64,000 bases of DNA from Escherichia coli (lineage in GTDB: Bacteria > Pseudomonadota > Gammaproteobacteria > Enterobacterales > Enterobacteriaceae): the NCBI RefSeq assembly GCF_030013205.1, contig NZ_CP122648.1; one strand, written 5' to 3'. Positions within the stretch are counted from its first letter, which is position 1. Each line of letters starts with the position of its first letter. Of the stretch, positions 37,019 to 42,606 are shown piece after piece. The notes under the pieces were generated by a model. It made no database searches. It was not told the DNA's origin and was given only the letters and a program-made list of their open reading frames with translations. The position numbers were made by a program, and so were the translations under genes.

Positions 37019-38252
37019 CGCTCTGACCGTTACAAAAAGAGAAAGCGCCCCGTTGCCGGAGCGCCTTTGTGAACGAATAGCCTACTGCGCCATATTGCTT
37101 ACTGTCTACGAGGCAGATTATAGCGTTGTGGTCGCACAGAGTGAAGGCGCTGATCACCGTTACTACAGCACGCCAGAAATGCAGAATATTTTGCTGCAAA
37201 ATGCCGTTGGTCACGCCGTCCGGAAAGCAAAAAATTTTGCTGGTGGCGCGACTGATGCGATTTTGTCAGGTCGCCAGGTGCTGATCAATCTGATGTCTGA
37301 TTTCGTTCTGGATAAAACAAAGGCGACCGCAGAGGGTCGCCAGTGGGTATTACGGCAAATCAAACTTGAACGCATCACCAACAATGCCACATTTGCGGCT
37401 GGTGGGCAATGTGATCAGTCAGATTTGGTTCGTTCCAGGGTTTGCAACGAGAGCTTTTTCCTGCGCTCTTTAAGGAATTTCTCAAGAGCAAACGAACAAG
37501 GTGCGAATCTTTCTGATTCATGCTCTATCTTTCTGCGCCGTCTTTTCCGTGTCGGTGATAATGTTTTGGTCAATTCTTTATCGGTCATTGTGTTGTCCTG
37601 CATAGCAATGCGCCGTAGTTACTCACACCACGGCGCTGATAGTGATTATTCTGATTCTTTGGCCTTCCGGCGCTGTTCATATTTTAATTTGCGTCCACAG
37701 GCATCTAAGACCCATGCGGAAAAATTAGCACTAGGATTAGTTAATTTTTCTTGTTCAACGCTGGCATCAATCCCATCTATAAGCTCATGTGGGAATCGAA
37801 TATTTTTCTTTGCTGATTTGTTGTTTGTGTTACCGCTAGACATTGATGCACCTCACTTAAATGGACTTTATGGGCGCACACAATACAGCAAAAAAAATGA
37901 GATGTTAAGTATTGACATGTGCGCACACATGATTTTAATCTGTGCGCACAGTTTGAGTTTTGTCACTCAAATTAAGCAACGCCCCGCAGTGCTCGCAACA
38001 CATGCAGGGCGTCTAACCACCAACGATAGCAAGAGTATCGAGGTAGCTATGAGAAATCATACCACACACCCGCAAGGGCGGGACTCGCACAACCTGAATA
38101 AATATATCTGGCGTTTTATCGCCCTGAGCACCGCACAACCGCGCGTGATTCACATCGTGGCCACCAGCGAACAGGAAGCACGCCAGCAATCTCCTGATGG
38201 CTGCGTGATGGTATTCGCTGCCCGTATTCGTCAGGGGGTAAGTCATGCATAA
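37011..38252 (+). CDS. doubtful 413-codon open frame, translationally coupled to the antirepressor gene
   Basis: ATG overlaps the upstream stop (ATGTGTAA); first ~130 codons look protein-like, the rest is low-complexity and overlaps two minus-strand ORFs and a promoter/operator region. Confidence 0.25.
   Translation: MCNALTVTKRESAPLPERLCERIAYCAILLTVYEADYSVVVAQSEGADHRYYSTPEMQNILLQNAVGHAVRKAKNFAGGATDAILSGRQVLINLMSDFVLDKTKATAEGRQWVLRQIKLERITNNATFAAGGQCDQSDLVRSRVCNESFFLRSLRNFSRANEQGANLSDSCSIFLRRLFRVGDNVLVNSLSVIVLSCIAMRRSYSHHGADSDYSDSLAFRRCSYFNLRPQASKTHAEKLALGLVNFSCSTLASIPSISSCGNRIFFFADLLFVLPLDIDAPHLNGLYGRTQYSKKNEMLSIDMCAHMILICAHSLSFVTQIKQRPAVLATHAGRLTTNDSKSIEVAMRNHTTHPQGRDSHNLNKYIWRFIALSTAQPRVIHIVATSEQEARQQSPDGCVMVFAARIRQGVSHA
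37415..37603 (-). CDS. small basic hypothetical protein
   Basis: 62-aa Lys/Arg/Glu-rich ORF downstream of the YlcI-like ORF on the same strand. Confidence 0.4.
   Translation of the reverse strand: MQDNTMTDKELTKTLSPTRKRRRRKIEHESERFAPCSFALEKFLKERRKKLSLQTLERTKSD
37646..37843 (-). CDS. YlcI/YnfO-family (DUF3950-like) small protein
   Basis: 65-aa ORF with NIRFPHELIDGID...NFSAWVLDACGRKL, matching the prophage YlcI/YnfO pattern as I recall it. Confidence 0.55.
   Translation of the reverse strand: MSSGNTNNKSAKKNIRFPHELIDGIDASVEQEKLTNPSANFSAWVLDACGRKLKYEQRRKAKESE
37868..37951. promoter_or_regulatory. divergent promoter region with three GCGCACA operator-like sites
   Basis: GGGCGCACACAAT; TTGACA immediately followed by GTGCGCAC (8-bp palindrome); perfect 12-bp palindrome CTGTGCGCACAG. 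Confidence 0.6.
38049..38252 (+). CDS. small hypothetical protein (possibly Icd-like)
   Basis: 67-aa ORF MRNHTTHPQGRDSHNLNKYIWRFIALSTAQPRVIHIVATSEQEARQQ... with SD GAGG 5 nt upstream; the Icd-like assignment is a weak memory-based guess. Confidence 0.4.
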   Translation: MRNHTTHPQGRDSHNLNKYIWRFIALSTAQPRVIHIVATSEQEARQQSPDGCVMVFAARIRQGVSHA

Positions 38253-38610
38253 CCTGTCAATTTCTGACCTTAACTGCATTCAGTTTGACGAGAAATTTAC
38301 CGGGCAGCTACTGGTCCATGTGGAGAACGGGCGCATAGTGCGTAATTACCACCTGCCGGATGGTGCAATTGCCGGAAGTGTTGAAGCATTGCTGGAACTG
38401 GCAGAGCGTGCGCGACTGATTAATCCGTCAACGTGCTATCACGATGATGATCTGCATTTTACCGGACGCATGGTGAGCCATTATGAAAACGGCGTTGAGG
38501 TATCCCGCGAACGTATGCGTGATGATTGCTGTTTCGGCACACTGCCGGAATTTATCGAGTTGCTGACCAGTTGCGGTTATCAGGTTATTCAGGGGGTGAA
38601 TTATGGATAA
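38245..38610 (+). CDS. hypothetical protein (paralogue A)
   Basis: 121-aa ORF with SD AGGGGG; shares a FTGxLLV...G...L motif with the next ORF. Confidence 0.55.
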   Translation: MHNLSISDLNCIQFDEKFTGQLLVHVENGRIVRNYHLPDGAIAGSVEALLELAERARLINPSTCYHDDDLHFTGRMVSHYENGVEVSRERMRDDCCFGTLPEFIELLTSCGYQVIQGVNYG

Positions 38611-38803
38611 TCAGCAAGCAACAATGACAATTACCCTGAGTGCGCCAGATGATTTCACCGGACGCATACTGGTTTACCTGGATAAAGGAAAAGTGAAATC
38701 ACAATGCCGACTGAAAAGTAATGAGATTGTTGGTTCTCCTGAATTTTTTTCTGAACTCTGTATTCGTGCGGAAATAAAACCGGAACTGCTGACAGGAAAA
38801 TAA
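38603..38803 (+). CDS. hypothetical protein (paralogue B)
   Basis: 66-aa ORF overlapping the upstream stop; PDDFTGRILVYLDKGKV... parallels DEKFTGQLLVHVENGRI... in the previous ORF. Confidence 0.5.
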   Translation: MDNQQATMTITLSAPDDFTGRILVYLDKGKVKSQCRLKSNEIVGSPEFFSELCIRAEIKPELLTGK

Positions 38804-38807
38804 AACC

Positions 38808-39098
38808 ATGAAAAAGAAAAATTCTGGCTTTACTGCCAGCGGCCTCTCTCGGCCTGAAATCCGCCCCGGTGATATTTTCCGGGACACCAGACGCGGGGGA
38901 CGGGTGGTTATTCGTCACGTTACGCCAGGCAATATCACCTACCGCCGTGAGGCTTACGAATATGACTGCGTAATGCCGCGCCGTCAGTTTGATCGTGATT
39001 TTATTCTGGTGGAAAACAAACAACTGGCAGTGGCGAGACGTGCAGCCACGAATATTAAAAAAATCCGGGCAATGTTGGTTGCGGGAGGTAAGAAGTGA
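38808..39098 (+). CDS. hypothetical protein
   Basis: 96-aa ORF; stop overlaps the start of the replication gene. Confidence 0.5.
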   Translation: MKKKNSGFTASGLSRPEIRPGDIFRDTRRGGRVVIRHVTPGNITYRREAYEYDCVMPRRQFDRDFILVENKQLAVARRAATNIKKIRAMLVAGGKK

Positions 39099-40507
39099 AA
39101 AACGCACCGAGTCTAAAATATCAGCCGAAGGATAAATTCACTGAGGTAATCATTTTTGCCGGGACGGATGCTTACGCCCATGCTCAACACTGGATTGAAA
39201 GTGAAGGACGAAAACACGGCGATAACGTGCCTCCTGTTTACCTGGGGCCAAAGCAACTGGCAGACCTGGCGAATATCCGCATTATTGACGAGAAACGCCG
39301 TTTTGCGCGTGTCTATATCGCGGGGGAGATAGAGCCAATCCAGATCAATACTATCGCTGAAAAGCTGGCGCTGGCTGGCGTACAGGAGGCGAAATTATAC
39401 AAAGGTATCACCGACCAGGAACCGGAGAACTGGCGCGACTACCTGCAACGGATCCGCGAACAGGCTGAGCGCGAAGAAATGCTTACTGACGAGCAATACA
39501 GCCAGCGAAAAACCACGCTACCAATGAGCATTGGATCGGAAGGATACGATTCACAGCTTAGCTATGTGGTTAAGGGTGTGATTCCGGCTAATTCGTTGTG
39601 CAGCACATACGGTGCGAGCGGTTCTTATAAGTCGTTCCTTGCGTGTTCGTGGGCGTGTCATGTTGCTACCGGTATCCCGTGGGGAGGTCGCAGGGTTGTA
39701 CATGGTGCGGTGATGTATGTCGTTGGTGAGGGCGGGATCGGTGTTCCTCGTCGTATCAAGGCATGGGAACTGGTGAACAGTGAGCAGGTGAAAAATCTGT
39801 ACCTGGTAAATCGTCCAATTTTTCCGGCCGCACCGAGTGATGTTGATGAAATGGTTATTGCTGCCCGACAGGTTGAGCAGGAAACGGGTAAACCTGTACG
39901 CATGATTATTCTGGATACTCTGGCGCGTTGCTTTGGTGGCAGCGATGAAAATGATGCGCGGGATATGGGGGCATTTGTCCATGGATGTGACGAACTGAAA
40001 CGGCGTACAGGCGCTACAGTGCTGGTAATTCACCATTCCGGCAAGGATGAAACAAAGGGTGCGCGCGGTTCCAGTGCGTTTCGTGCAGCACTGGATGCAG
40101 AGTACCGGATACGCCGTGAAGGTGCAGGCAGTGAAGCCCTGGTTATCGCATGTACCAAGATGAAGGATGCGGAGGAACTGAAAGAAATGGCTTGCGATTT
40201 GCGCGAGGTTGAGCTTTTCAAGGATGAAGGCGGGGAGTTAATCACGTCATTGGTGCTGGAGGATAAGCCCCGTCCGCCAGTTGAACTGGAGCGCATCGAG
40301 TACGCTGCTAACAAGACAGAGAATCACGTCGCGCTATGGGGCTGTATCCGTTCACGCACGCAACGCGGAGATAAATGCACTATCCCGTTGTTGCGCGATG
40401 ACATGAAAAAGCTGGGGTATGAGATGAAACACTTCCGGCGCTGGCTGTACAAGCTGGAAGGTGACGGCGTAATCACTATTGACGGTGATGACGTGCGCCC
40501 ACTGTAA
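39095..40507 (+). CDS. replication initiator / helicase-like protein (RecA/DnaB-like ATPase)
   Basis: SD GGGAGG then GTG; Walker A-like GASGSYKSF, Walker B-like MIILDTLARCF, IHHSGKDETKGARGSSA; immediately followed by an iteron region. Confidence 0.7.
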   Translation: MKNAPSLKYQPKDKFTEVIIFAGTDAYAHAQHWIESEGRKHGDNVPPVYLGPKQLADLANIRIIDEKRRFARVYIAGEIEPIQINTIAEKLALAGVQEAKLYKGITDQEPENWRDYLQRIREQAEREEMLTDEQYSQRKTTLPMSIGSEGYDSQLSYVVKGVIPANSLCSTYGASGSYKSFLACSWACHVATGIPWGGRRVVHGAVMYVVGEGGIGVPRRIKAWELVNSEQVKNLYLVNRPIFPAAPSDVDEMVIAARQVEQETGKPVRMIILDTLARCFGGSDENDARDMGAFVHGCDELKRRTGATVLVIHHSGKDETKGARGSSAFRAALDAEYRIRREGAGSEALVIACTKMKDAEELKEMACDLREVELFKDEGGELITSLVLEDKPRPPVELERIEYAANKTENHVALWGCIRSRTQRGDKCTIPLLRDDMKKLGYEMKHFRRWLYKLEGDGVITIDGDDVRPL

Positions 40508-42535: not shown

Positions 42536-42606
42536 GCCGGGATTTTTCCCGGCTTTTTTGTGCCAGTAAAAAGCCCGCAGCCAGAAGTGTTGCGGGCTTT
42601 GTTTTT
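42536..42606 (+). terminator. two tandem rho-independent terminators
   Basis: GCCGGGA-TTTT-TCCCGGC plus T6, then AAGCCCGCA...TGCGGGCTT plus TGTTTTT. Confidence 0.7.

What the first reader, a model, noticed from the sequence alone, without database searches (positions are those of the whole stretch)
37868..37951. Divergent promoter with three GCGCACA operator-like sites
Between the minus-strand YlcI-like ORF and the plus-strand ORF at 38049 there are three copies of a GCGCACA core. One is the perfect 12-bp palindrome CTGTGCGCACAG. One is the 8-bp palindrome GTGCGCAC abutting a consensus TTGACA -35 hexamer. This is a classic repressor-controlled switch region and probably the immunity or induction control point of the element.
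Basis: seen in the sequence. Interest (0 to 1): 0.55.

Follow-up and report, generated by a model that had tools for sequence, protein, structure and literature searches.

The report
Repressor operators of a phage-satellite switch
The three GCGCACA palindromes are real and are conserved in position in about 80 related elements, so they are most likely operators where the adjacent small YlcI protein shuts off the replication operon of a phage-satellite island, with an overlooked antisense RNA next door as a second brake.

Summary
Three copies of TGTGCGCACA (two perfect, one with one mismatch) lie in 81 bp between the divergent ylcI and icd-like genes of a ~14.7-kb int-alpA-PerC island inserted in yifB of E. 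coli.

This is not chance. None of 20,000 random 205-bp sequences had such a triplet. About 80 related loci from Enterobacterales and Orbales keep the same layout:
- one site in the spacer of the rightward promoter;
- one over its -10 end and start site;
- one over the -10 and start site of the ylcI promoter.

The consensus is G-TGT-N4-ACA-C. The central bases differ between lineages but match among the sites of one element. They track YlcI, whose residues 11, 12 and 14 are hypervariable beside an invariant K-x-IRFPHE motif that resembles the DNA-reading strand of Arc.

My best explanation is that YlcI (DUF3950), probably a ribbon-helix-helix protein, represses the icd-to-RepA-helicase operon and its own gene.

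A conserved ~80-nt antisense RNA (38050 to 37970, minus strand) covers the icd ribosome-binding site. It resembles the IncQ R1162 countertranscript.

The characterised island EcCIMP1 carries isrK/C4 RNAs at the same position instead.

Binding and repression are inferred, not shown. This is a new member of a known kind, of moderate interest.

The parts
37646..37843 (-). ylcI: a 65-aa YlcI/YnfO (DUF3950) protein, the candidate repressor. It has an Arc-like N-terminal motif K-N-I-R-F-P-H-E followed by two predicted helices.
37871..37880 (.). O1: TGGGCGCACA, one mismatch to the palindrome. It overlaps the -10 end and the predicted start site of the leftward ylcI promoter.
   Evidence: An equivalent site overlaps the -10 in related loci and resembles that locus's own O2/O3. 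It is a perfect TGTGCGCACA in Rahnella loci L004 and L005.
37880..37908 (-). P_L, the leftward promoter for ylcI: -35 TTAACA (37908-37903), 17-bp spacer, -10 TATTGT (37885-37880). The predicted start is about 37871-37873. The ribosome-binding site GAGG lies ~8 nt before the ATG at 37843.
   Evidence: Promoter scan. A -10-like TAnnnT hexamer is conserved just upstream of O1 in related loci.
37912..37941 (+). P_R, the rightward promoter for the icd-like to RepA-helicase operon: -35 TTGACA (37912-37917), -10 TAATCT (37936-37941, 18-bp spacer). An alternative -10 is TTTAAT (37934-37939, 16-bp spacer). The predicted start is about 37948.
   Evidence: Sequence. A position matrix of 50 distinct loci shows TTGAC (invariant here because it was the anchor used to select them), then 18 nt, then T(46) A(47) W N S T(48).
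37918..37927 (.). O2: perfect 10-bp palindrome TGTGCGCACA, filling the -35/-10 spacer of P_R.
   Evidence: The position is fixed relative to TTGAC in the anchored loci, with consensus G-TGT-N4-ACA-C. It is invariant in GCGC-type loci while the flanks diverge.
37940..37951 (.). O3: perfect 12-bp palindrome CTGTGCGCACAG (core 37941-37950). It overlaps the last bases of the P_R -10 and the predicted start site. Its centre is 23 bp from that of O2.
   Evidence: The same register holds in related loci. The 23-bp operator-plus-spacer unit is duplicated in L046 and deleted in L053.
37970..38050 (-). Predicted ~80-nt cis-antisense RNA (countertranscript). It is complementary to the 5' UTR, the ribosome-binding site (GAGG, 38040-38043) and the start codon of the icd-like gene. 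A terminator hairpin at 37978-38013 is followed by a U-run.
   Evidence: Minus strand MFE -40 kcal/mol, z = -5.0. In 25 loci the antisense strand folds at a mean of -34.5 against -21.5 kcal/mol for the sense strand, with 14 G-U pairs in antisense and 1 in sense. 13 of 18 pairs have compensatory changes. Covariance model R1 scores 76 bits here and hits 80 of 84 ylcI loci on the ylcI strand. It also hits the IncQ countertranscript position at 22 bits, E 0.005.
38056..38064 (-). Extended -10 TGGTATGAT, the predicted promoter of the antisense RNA, lying inside codons 3-6 of the icd-like gene. The predicted start is about 38049.
   Evidence: Sequence. A TAnnnT hexamer (TATGAT, TATAAT, TATAGT, TAGACT or TATGCT) lies 6-9 nt before the RNA start in most lineages.
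38049..38252 (+). First gene of the repressed operon, an icd-like protein of 67 aa. It is followed by small ORFs, a DUF4222 gene and the RepA-family helicase (39095-40507).

Best explanation
The three sites are operators of a compact regulatory cassette carried by a phage-satellite island of the Gram-negative PICI type (int, alpA, ant, RepA-family helicase, ProQ/FinO, PerC).

Proposed mechanism:
1. The divergently transcribed 65-aa YlcI protein is probably a ribbon-helix-helix dimer. Its N-terminal strand (K12, N14, R16) would read the major groove, and it would bind each 10-12-bp palindrome G-TGT-GCGC-ACA-C.
2. O2 fills the -35/-10 spacer of the rightward promoter P_R. O3 covers its -10 end and start site. 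Occupancy would therefore exclude RNA polymerase and keep the icd-like to RepA-helicase (replication) operon silent.
3. O1 has one mismatch and is probably weaker. It overlaps the -10 and start of the ylcI promoter and would give negative autoregulation.
4. A second layer is an ~80-nt antisense RNA. It would start at about the icd start codon and end at a strong terminator just before O3. By pairing with the leader and ribosome-binding site it would block translation of the first gene of any transcript that escapes repression.

This logic matches the dual protein-plus-countertranscript control of small plasmid replicons, namely pMV158 CopG/RNA II (from my own knowledge) and IncQ F/75-nt RNA.

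Shown here: the sites, their non-random occurrence, their conserved register relative to both promoters, their within-locus covariation, their linkage to YlcI, and the antisense-strand structure with compensatory changes.

Inferred: the fold of YlcI, binding, repression, the stoichiometry of binding, and the way a helper phage or AlpA lifts repression.
For: - **Non-random occurrence.**
- **Conserved architecture.** In 33 genome loci and 53 IMG/VR loci retrieved through YlcI alone, a -35 element (TTGAC in nearly all, used as the alignment anchor) is followed at once by O2. A -10 TAWNNT lies 18 nt on, and O3 starts inside it. A third site overlaps the -10 of the ylcI promoter.
- **Locus-specific centres.** The outer TGT/ACA is conserved family-wide, while the central bases are specific to each locus and shared among its sites. 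Best O1 identity to the locus's own O2/O3 averages 9.36 of 12, against 8.21 for foreign ones. Identity of 10 or more occurs in 14 of 28 own-locus comparisons against 69 of 606 cross-locus ones.
- **Footprinting.** Among loci with the GCGC centre, O2 and O3 are invariant while the spacer and flanks diverge.
- **Linkage to YlcI only.**
  - Rahnella L004 and L005 have the same KKNIRFPHE strand and the same TGTGCGCACA sites as the window. Yet they have no detectable AlpA homologue, an integrase only 22% identical, and a different first rightward gene.
  - L002 and L003 share YlcI and operators but differ in the first rightward gene.
  - No conserved ORF follows ylcI.
- **Specificity signature in YlcI.** Positions 11, 12 and 14 have 2.0-2.7 bits of entropy, set between invariant S10, K13, I15, R16, F17 and P18. 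The residue pair at 12/14 tracks the operator class across taxa.
- **Hints of the fold.**
  - NIRFPHE aligns with NLRWPRE of Arc, where N11 and R13 read bases (Arc sequence and contacts from my own knowledge).
  - Two helices follow the motif.
  - There are sub-threshold Pfam hits to HicB_lk_antitox and CopG_antitoxin.
  - Remote relatives are fused to other DNA-binding modules.
- **Antisense RNA.**
- **Positional equivalence.** EcCIMP1 carries isrK/C4 RNAs, whose P1/P4 relatives mediate immunity, upstream of its icd-like gene.
- **Literature.** A global repressor of Gram-negative PICIs is described as unclear (PMC6092414).
Against: - No experiment exists. Binding, promoter activity and the RNA are all predictions.
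- The residue-to-operator correspondence is imperfect. KKN, KKY and KKG proteins all go with the GCGC centre, while EKKN goes with a different centre.
- Operators and ylcI are inherited together, so covariation is confounded by linkage.
- YlcI-family genes in lambda and lambdoid prophages lie near the right end of the genome, with no obvious operator array. The family need not always act as a switch repressor.
- AlpA, not a repressor, is the experimentally shown master regulator in related islands.
Confidence: 0.7

Rival explanations
1. The palindromes are operators, but they are bound by another protein. Candidates are the island's AlpA activator, a product of the rightward operon acting like Cro, PerC, a helper-phage protein or a host factor. 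YlcI would then do something else.
For: AlpA is the demonstrated activator of downstream genes in related PICIs. PHROGs labels the icd-like family 'transcriptional repressor'. YlcI's DNA-binding fold is not proven.
Against: L004 and L005 carry identical sites with no detectable AlpA homologue and a different first gene. L002 and L003 share sites but differ in the first gene. The other rightward genes of the window have no homologues in the other loci. A host or helper factor would not explain centres that differ between elements while co-varying within each element and with YlcI residues 12/14. The site is not a LexA box: the spacing is CTGT-N4-ACAG rather than N8 (LexA consensus from my own knowledge).
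Confidence: 0.15
2. YlcI is the ribbon-helix-helix antitoxin of a toxin-antitoxin pair, and the palindromes only autoregulate that pair. They would not control the island's replication operon.
Against: No conserved ORF follows ylcI in 23 loci examined, and orf62 has no homologue in the genome-derived loci L002-L034. Two of the three sites sit on the divergent promoter P_R rather than on the ylcI promoter.
Confidence: 0.05
3. The palindromes act as nucleic-acid hairpins, either as a terminator or attenuator or as a cruciform, rather than as protein-binding sites.
For: The scan flags CATGTGCGCACACATG plus ATTTTAAT (37916-37931) as terminator-like on the plus strand.
Against: The stems are only 5-6 bp with no loop. 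In other lineages the sites are not palindromic (for example GTGCACCCCCAC and its inverted copy in L007) yet keep the same register to the -35 and -10. That fits protein recognition and not hairpin formation.
Confidence: 0.05
4. The repeats are a neutral relic of a 23-bp tandem duplication and have no function.
For: L046 and L053 show that the 23-bp unit is gained and lost by recombination between repeats.
Against: The sites are kept in fixed register with promoter elements from Escherichia to Gilliamella and Orbus, while the spacers diverge completely. A third copy lies 47 bp away on the other promoter.
Confidence: 0.03

Closest known systems
pMV158 CopG / RNA II control of repB (streptococcal rolling-circle plasmid; from my own knowledge, and PMC2724298 listed)
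   Same: A small ribbon-helix-helix repressor binds a short pseudo-palindrome that overlaps the promoter of the replication operon. A short countertranscript pairs with the leader and ribosome-binding site of the first replication gene. Together these give two-layer negative control.
   Different: copG is co-transcribed with repB, whereas ylcI is divergent and has its own operator. There is no detectable sequence homology to CopG. Here there are three operators and two promoters. The controlled element is an integrated phage satellite, not a plasmid.
IncQ R1162/RSF1010: F repressor at promoter P4 plus the 75-nt countertranscript against the repA leader (Rfam RF00043)
   Same: The downstream replication protein is a RepA-family helicase. 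The leader has the same layout: a GC hairpin, then single-stranded UAACCACCAAC, then a hairpin carrying the ribosome-binding site, then AUG. My covariance model of the island RNA hits the IncQ plasmid end-to-end on the antisense strand, exactly between F and repA (22 bits, E 0.005).
   Different: The window scores 18.4 bits against a gathering score of 55 for RF00043. The F protein is unrelated to YlcI. In the island the RNA targets an icd-like gene five genes upstream of the helicase.
Phage P22 immI region: Arc and Mnt ribbon-helix-helix repressors at divergent promoters Pant/Pmnt (from my own knowledge)
   Same: Small repressors with the N-x-R-(W/F)-P-x-E strand motif control a pair of divergent promoters through short symmetric operators.
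   Different: Arc binds one 21-bp operator as a tetramer. Here there are three 10-12-bp sites with centres 23 and 47 bp apart. Homology is not demonstrable beyond the motif.
C4/CI (and isrK) RNA immunity upstream of icd-like genes in P1, P4 and the PICI EcCIMP1
   Same: Same genomic position, immediately upstream of the icd-like first gene of the replication or antirepressor operon. The presumed purpose, keeping that operon off, is also the same.
   Different: No C4 or isrK match appears in the window even at E 10. The window's cassette uses a protein with operators plus a cis-antisense RNA, not a processed trans-acting RNA.
SaPI/PICI master repressor Stl (Rpr) of Gram-positive islands
   Same: A repressor gene is transcribed divergently from the excision and replication operon of a phage satellite (PMC6092414).
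   Different: Stl proteins are larger helix-turn-helix proteins (from my own knowledge) and are co-oriented with int. Here ylcI is convergent with int-alpA-ant. Derepression by a helper protein is unknown here.

Membership tests
Ribbon-helix-helix (Arc/MetJ/CopG) repressors | N-terminal beta-strand followed by two helices, with the strand pairing in a dimer | tested here: inconclusive
   The AF2 monomer has helices at 19-35 and 41-64 with residues 13-18 extended. The fused-dimer model failed with pLDDT 45. The alternating conserved/variable pattern at residues 10-18 fits a strand with one face toward DNA.
Ribbon-helix-helix (Arc/MetJ/CopG) repressors | Significant sequence or structure similarity to a solved member | tested here: inconclusive
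Ribbon-helix-helix (Arc/MetJ/CopG) repressors | Binds short symmetric or tandem operators overlapping its own promoter | not testable with these tools
   Suitable 10-12-bp palindromes overlap both promoters. Binding itself needs EMSA or footprinting.
Repressor-controlled divergent-promoter switch (phage immunity-region type) | Two divergent promoters with multiple operators overlapping their -35/-10/+1 elements, next to the repressor gene | tested here: met
   P_L was found by the scan. P_R was defined by the family matrix. O1, O2 and O3 overlap them in a register conserved in ~80 loci.
Repressor-controlled divergent-promoter switch (phage immunity-region type) | A Cro-like antagonist as the first gene of the opposing operon | tested here: not met
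   The first rightward gene is replaceable without any change of operators (L002 vs L003; window vs L004/L005). It therefore does not determine the operator sequence.
R1162-like plasmid antisense RNA (Rfam RF00043) | Score at or above the Rfam gathering threshold (55 bits) | tested here: not met
   18.4 bits, E 2.9 at 37977-38050. The reciprocal model hit on IncQ scored 22.1 bits, E 0.005. This suggests a distant relationship or convergence, not membership.
C4 / isrK phage immunity RNAs (RF01695, RF01394) | Covariance-model match upstream of the icd-like gene | tested here: not met
   No match in the window at the gathering threshold, at E<=10 over 37300-38700, or at E<=1 over 36900-37700. As a positive control, EcCIMP1 gives C4 at 81 bits and isrK at 69 bits.
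Gram-negative PICI (phage-inducible chromosomal island) | int followed by alpA, a replication gene, PerC-type accessory genes, ~10-20 kb, site-specific insertion | tested here: met
   RefSeq annotation of the identical locus lists int, a helix-turn-helix (AlpA-like) gene, Ant, a RepA-family helicase, ProQ/FinO and PerC. The island is ~14.7 kb and splits yifB (phrogs). The same cassette occurs in the packaged capsid-forming PICI vB_KppS-Ant.
Gram-negative PICI (phage-inducible chromosomal island) | Induction and packaging by a helper phage | not testable with these tools
   No helper is known for this island.
Type II toxin-antitoxin module with a ribbon-helix-helix antitoxin | A conserved adjacent toxin gene in the same operon | tested here: not met
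   No conserved ORF lies downstream of ylcI in 23 loci. orf62 has no homologue in the genome-derived loci L002-L034.
LexA (SOS) box | CTGT-N8-ACAG | tested here: not met
   The site is CTGT-GCGC-ACAG, with N4 spacing. The LexA consensus is from my own knowledge.

The most novel reading that the evidence does not exclude
The ylcI-operator-countertranscript cassette is the missing master repressor module of a large subset of Gram-negative PICIs and capsid-forming PICIs. It would be interchangeable with the C4/isrK RNA cassette at the same position. YlcI residues 11, 12 and 14 and the operator centres would have diversified into at least about a dozen hetero-specific 'immunity' types. This would give the uncharacterised DUF3950/YlcI-YnfO family, which includes an unannotated lambda ORF and two E. 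coli K-12 y-genes, its first function.
Probability: 0.45. Interest if true: 0.65.

Novelty: new member of a known kind. Interest (0 to 1): 0.55.

Why it matters
Gram-negative phage-inducible islands spread virulence and anti-phage genes. Their known regulator is the activator AlpA, and the founding paper states that a global repressor is unclear (PMC6092414).

A conserved, portable cassette with a candidate repressor, three operators and a countertranscript gives a directly testable answer for part of these islands and for capsid-forming PICIs.

It also assigns a plausible function to DUF3950 (YlcI/YnfO). I found no functional study of this family in the searchable literature.

Finally, it offers a natural series of orthogonal operator/repressor pairs with a simple recognition code, which could be useful for synthetic circuits.

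Tried and rejected
- **Sequence searches for a solved relative of YlcI.** The PDB profile search found nothing.
- **Dimer model.** I forced a dimer by fusing two copies with a Gly-Ser linker in a paired alignment. The result had pLDDT 45 and was unusable.
- **Rfam.** No family reaches threshold in the region. The mir-27 and snoRNA hits are noise.
- **Similarity searches of plasmids and phages.**
  - blastn of the region against plasmids found no IncQ similarity at the DNA level.
  - tblastn with the icd-like protein found only the capsid-forming PICI, and neither P1 nor P4.
- **Literature.** Searches for YlcI/YnfO/DUF3950 and for a PICI repressor found no functional study.
- **Ant as antirepressor of YlcI.** I considered this but rejected it as a firm claim. 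Ant co-occurs with the cassette in only about a third of loci, and it is present in EcCIMP1, which lacks ylcI.
- **TTTAAT as the -10 of P_R.** I considered TTTAAT with a 16-bp spacer. The family matrix favours TAATCT with an 18-bp spacer.
- **Frequency in E. coli.** This exact cassette type occurs in 68 of 5,426 complete genomes, always as a single copy. That is too rare to test mutual exclusion.
Full report
**1. The observation**

The intergenic region 37844-38048 lies between a minus-strand YlcI/YnfO gene (37646-37843) and a plus-strand icd-like gene that starts at 38049. It contains three related sites:
- TGGGCGCACA at 37871-37880;
- TGTGCGCACA at 37918-37927, a perfect 10-bp palindrome directly abutting TTGACA at 37912-37917;
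- CTGTGCGCACAG at 37940-37951, a perfect 12-bp palindrome.

The only correction is that the middle palindrome is 10 bp long, not 8.

The heptamer GCGCACA is not enriched in the window as a whole (15 copies against 16 expected), but the clustering is far from chance:
- Three of the six matches to TGTGCGCACA (at most one mismatch) in 64 kb lie here.
- None of 20,000 random 205-bp sequences contained three copies of any 10-bp palindrome.
- No other place in the window does either.

**2. Context**

The window is E. coli and is 100% identical to strain ETEC4079. The region belongs to a ~14.7-kb island that splits yifB. RefSeq and PHROGs annotate these genes on it:
- a tyrosine integrase, an AlpA-like excisionase/regulator and an Ant-like protein, all on the plus strand;
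- ylcI, on the minus strand;
- then, on the plus strand again, the icd-like gene, three small ORFs including a DUF4222 gene, a RepA-family helicase, ProQ/FinO, PerC, a NUDIX protein, a DUF2213 protein and a lytic transglycosylase.

This is the gene set of Gram-negative phage-inducible chromosomal islands such as EcCIMP1 (PMC11773190). For these islands AlpA is the demonstrated activator. [quoted passage not shown]

**3. Comparative anatomy**

I retrieved loci only through the YlcI protein: 33 from one-genome-per-species contigs and 53 from IMG/VR. Most of the IMG/VR contigs are of satellite size.

Nearly all of these loci share one architecture. They span Escherichia, Klebsiella, Serratia, Rahnella, Pectobacterium, Brenneria, Pantoea, Xenorhabdus, Proteus, Providencia, Arsenophonus, Gilliamella and Orbus.

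Reading rightward, the layout is:
- TTGAC(N), the -35 of the rightward promoter;
- a 12-bp site immediately after it;
- a conserved -10 (T46 A47 W N S T48 of 50 distinct sequences) after an 18-nt spacer;
- a second 12-bp site that starts inside that -10.

Reading leftward, a TAnnnT hexamer is overlapped by a third site about 30-40 nt before the ylcI start codon.

The site consensus is G-TGT-N4-ACA-C. The outer bases are conserved across the family. The central bases differ between lineages: GCGC here, with TTAA, ATAT/ACAA, ACCC and CCGC in others. Within one element the central bases are alike among the sites. The best match of O1 to its own O2/O3 averages 9.36 of 12, against 8.21 for foreign operators. 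Matches of 10 or more occur in 14 of 28 own-locus comparisons against 69 of 606 cross-locus ones.

Among loci that share the GCGC centre but are otherwise diverged, O2 and O3 are invariant. The 13-bp spacer between them is unrecognisable apart from the -10.

Two natural variants show that the operator-plus-spacer unit is a recombining module. L046 has a 23-bp duplication, giving four sites. L053 has the matching deletion.

For the window these results give the following map:
- P_R has -35 at 37912-17 and -10 TAATCT at 37936-41, with a start near 37948.
- P_L has -35 at 37908-03 and -10 at 37885-80, with a start near 37872.
- O2 lies in the P_R spacer, O3 on the P_R -10 end and +1, and O1 on the P_L -10 end and +1.

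**4. Who binds**

YlcI is the only protein consistently linked to the sites.
- Rahnella loci L004 and L005 carry the window's sites and the same N-terminal strand (SAKKNIRFPHE). Yet they have no detectable AlpA, an integrase only 22% identical, and a different first rightward gene.
- Serratia loci L002 and L003 share YlcI and operators but differ in the first rightward gene.
- No conserved ORF follows ylcI. This argues against a toxin-antitoxin pair.

YlcI shows the signature of a specificity-diversifying DNA reader. Residues 11, 12 and 14 carry 2.0-2.7 bits of entropy, while S10, K13, I15, R16, F17 and P18 are invariant.

The 12/14 residue pair tracks the operator class across taxa:
- K/N, K/Y and K/G go with TGT-GCGC-ACA.
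- K/H goes with TGTG(A/C/T)ACCCAC.
- Q/K goes with GTG(C/T)ACCCCCAC.
- T/G goes with GTGCAYAWACAC.
- Y/G goes with TGTTTAAACA.
- R/D goes with TGTCCGCACA.

There are exceptions, such as EKKN.

The motif K-N-I-R-F-P-H-E aligns with Arc F-N-L-R-W-P-R-E. In Arc, Q9, N11 and R13 contact bases (from my own knowledge). These correspond to YlcI residues 12, 14 and 16.

The ribbon-helix-helix fold is nevertheless only probable:
- The monomer model shows an extended N-terminus plus two helices.
- Pfam hits to ribbon-helix-helix antitoxin families are sub-threshold.
- The PDB profile search, both Foldseek searches, hhalign and a fused-dimer model gave nothing usable.

Remote DUF3950 relatives are fused to terminase small-subunit or recombinase helix-turn-helix modules. 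This is consistent with a DNA-binding domain.

**5.

The 97-nt leader between O3 and the icd start is conserved across the family.

The structure belongs to the minus strand:
- In all 25 distinct sequences the antisense strand folds much better (mean -34.5 against -21.5 kcal/mol).
- The conserved helices contain 14 G-U pairs in antisense but only 1 in sense.
- RNAalifold gives -22.6 kcal/mol for antisense against -9.0 for sense.
- 13 of 18 pairs carry compensatory changes.
- In the window the minus strand 38056-37962 folds at -40 kcal/mol with z = -5.0.

The predicted RNA has three parts: a 5' stem enclosing a hairpin whose loop is complementary to the ribosome-binding-site region, a GC-rich terminator hairpin (38013-37978), and a U-run.

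An extended -10 (TGGTATGAT, 38064-38056) lies inside codons 3-6 of the icd-like gene. It places the start at about 38049. A TAnnnT hexamer sits 6-9 nt before the RNA start in most lineages.

A covariance model of this RNA hits 80 of 84 ylcI loci, always on the ylcI strand just upstream of the operators. It also hits the capsid-forming PICI vB_KppS-Ant.

The same model hits an RSF1010-type IncQ plasmid end-to-end on the antisense strand. The hit falls exactly between the F repressor gene and repA, where the known 75-nt R1162 countertranscript lies (22 bits, E 0.005). In the other direction, Rfam's R1162 model is the only plausible weak hit in the window (18 bits, well below the gathering score).

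The two leaders share their layout, including the identical single-stranded UAACCACCAAC. I therefore treat the RNA as working like an IncQ or pMV158 countertranscript. I do not treat it as a member of RF00043.

**6. Mechanism**

The best-supported reading is a two-layer off-switch for the island's replication operon.
- YlcI at O2 and O3 would block P_R.
- YlcI at the weaker O1 would limit its own synthesis.
- The countertranscript would block translation of the first gene of any escaping transcript.

How repression is lifted is unknown. One inferred possibility is that AlpA-driven transcription from the upstream int-alpA-ant unit, which converges on ylcI, overrides the cassette.

The stoichiometry is also unresolved. 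It could be one dimer per 10-12-bp site, with or without cooperation across the 23-bp spacing.

**7. Comparison with what is known**

The cassette occupies the position where EcCIMP1 has isrK and C4 RNAs upstream of its icd-like gene. The window has no C4 or isrK match. EcCIMP1 in turn has neither ylcI nor the countertranscript. The two look like alternative control modules at the same position.

The closest functional analogues are pMV158 CopG/RNA II, IncQ F/countertranscript and P22 Arc/Mnt.

I found no paper in the searchable library that assigns a function to YlcI/YnfO/DUF3950 or describes this cassette.

**8. Verdict**

The feature is real and very probably a functional operator array. 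The kind of system is classical. The protein family, the operator code and the association with Gram-negative PICIs appear to be undescribed. I rate it a new member of a known kind, with interest 0.55.

Noticed in passing
window 37970-38050 (-), promoter 38056-38064 (-): A conserved ~80-nt antisense RNA lies opposite the leader and ribosome-binding site of the icd-like gene. It has a strong terminator and compensatory base changes. It is distantly similar to the IncQ R1162 countertranscript and matches no Rfam family at threshold.
   Followed up: yes
L091 16600-16840 (E. coli MP1, PICI EcCIMP1): The experimentally characterised PICI EcCIMP1 carries isrK (69 bits) and C4 (81 bits) RNAs just upstream of its icd-like gene. 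They lie under a pseudogene annotated as 'ash family protein'. It has no ylcI and no countertranscript, so this looks like an alternative control cassette at the same position.
   Followed up: partly
L046 and L053 (IMG/VR loci), equivalent to window 37918-37940: The 23-bp unit of operator plus spacer is tandemly duplicated in L046, giving four operators. It is deleted in L053, leaving two. L053's YlcI also has E20G in the invariant motif. L046 additionally has a second copy of the antisense-RNA element downstream of ylcI (2060-2143).
   Followed up: partly
L035 = LR881103.1 (vB_KppS-Ant) 8578-9552: In this packaged capsid-forming PICI the deposited annotation calls a 975-bp plus-strand 'hypothetical protein'. 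That call runs across the real minus-strand ylcI (9000-9185), the three operators and the antisense RNA, so it is probably a mis-annotation.
   Followed up: partly
L036 = phage lambda J02459 48142-48303 (-): Lambda has an unannotated YlcI-family ORF (MSTKNRTRRTTTRNIRFPNQMIEQIN...) at the extreme right end of the genome, near cos. I saw no obvious triple-operator array upstream. The function of the family in lambdoid phages remains open.
   Followed up: partly
window 37293-37650 (+) and 37415-37603 (-): RefSeq annotates a truncated 'Icd-like' pseudogene on the plus strand here. The same DNA encodes a 62-aa, very basic minus-strand ORF that matches phrog_21027 (E 2e-13). Which reading is real is unresolved. 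No C4 or isrK remnant was detected.
   Followed up: partly
window 42544-42606 (+): There is a weak match of the antisense-RNA covariance model here (15.9 bits, E 0.13), just downstream of the ProQ/FinO gene and in or next to the PerC gene. It may be chance.
   Followed up: no
window 37322-37341 and 37386-37399 (-): Two terminator-like hairpins on the minus strand lie downstream of ylcI and orf62, between the convergent ant and ylcI units. They may be bidirectional terminators separating the two units.
   Followed up: no
proteins P0137-P0214 (remote DUF3950 relatives): Many distant DUF3950 proteins are 120-250 aa long. They carry C-terminal Recombinase-type helix-turn-helix modules or a terminase small-subunit N-terminal domain, which suggests the domain is a portable DNA-binding module.
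   Followed up: partly
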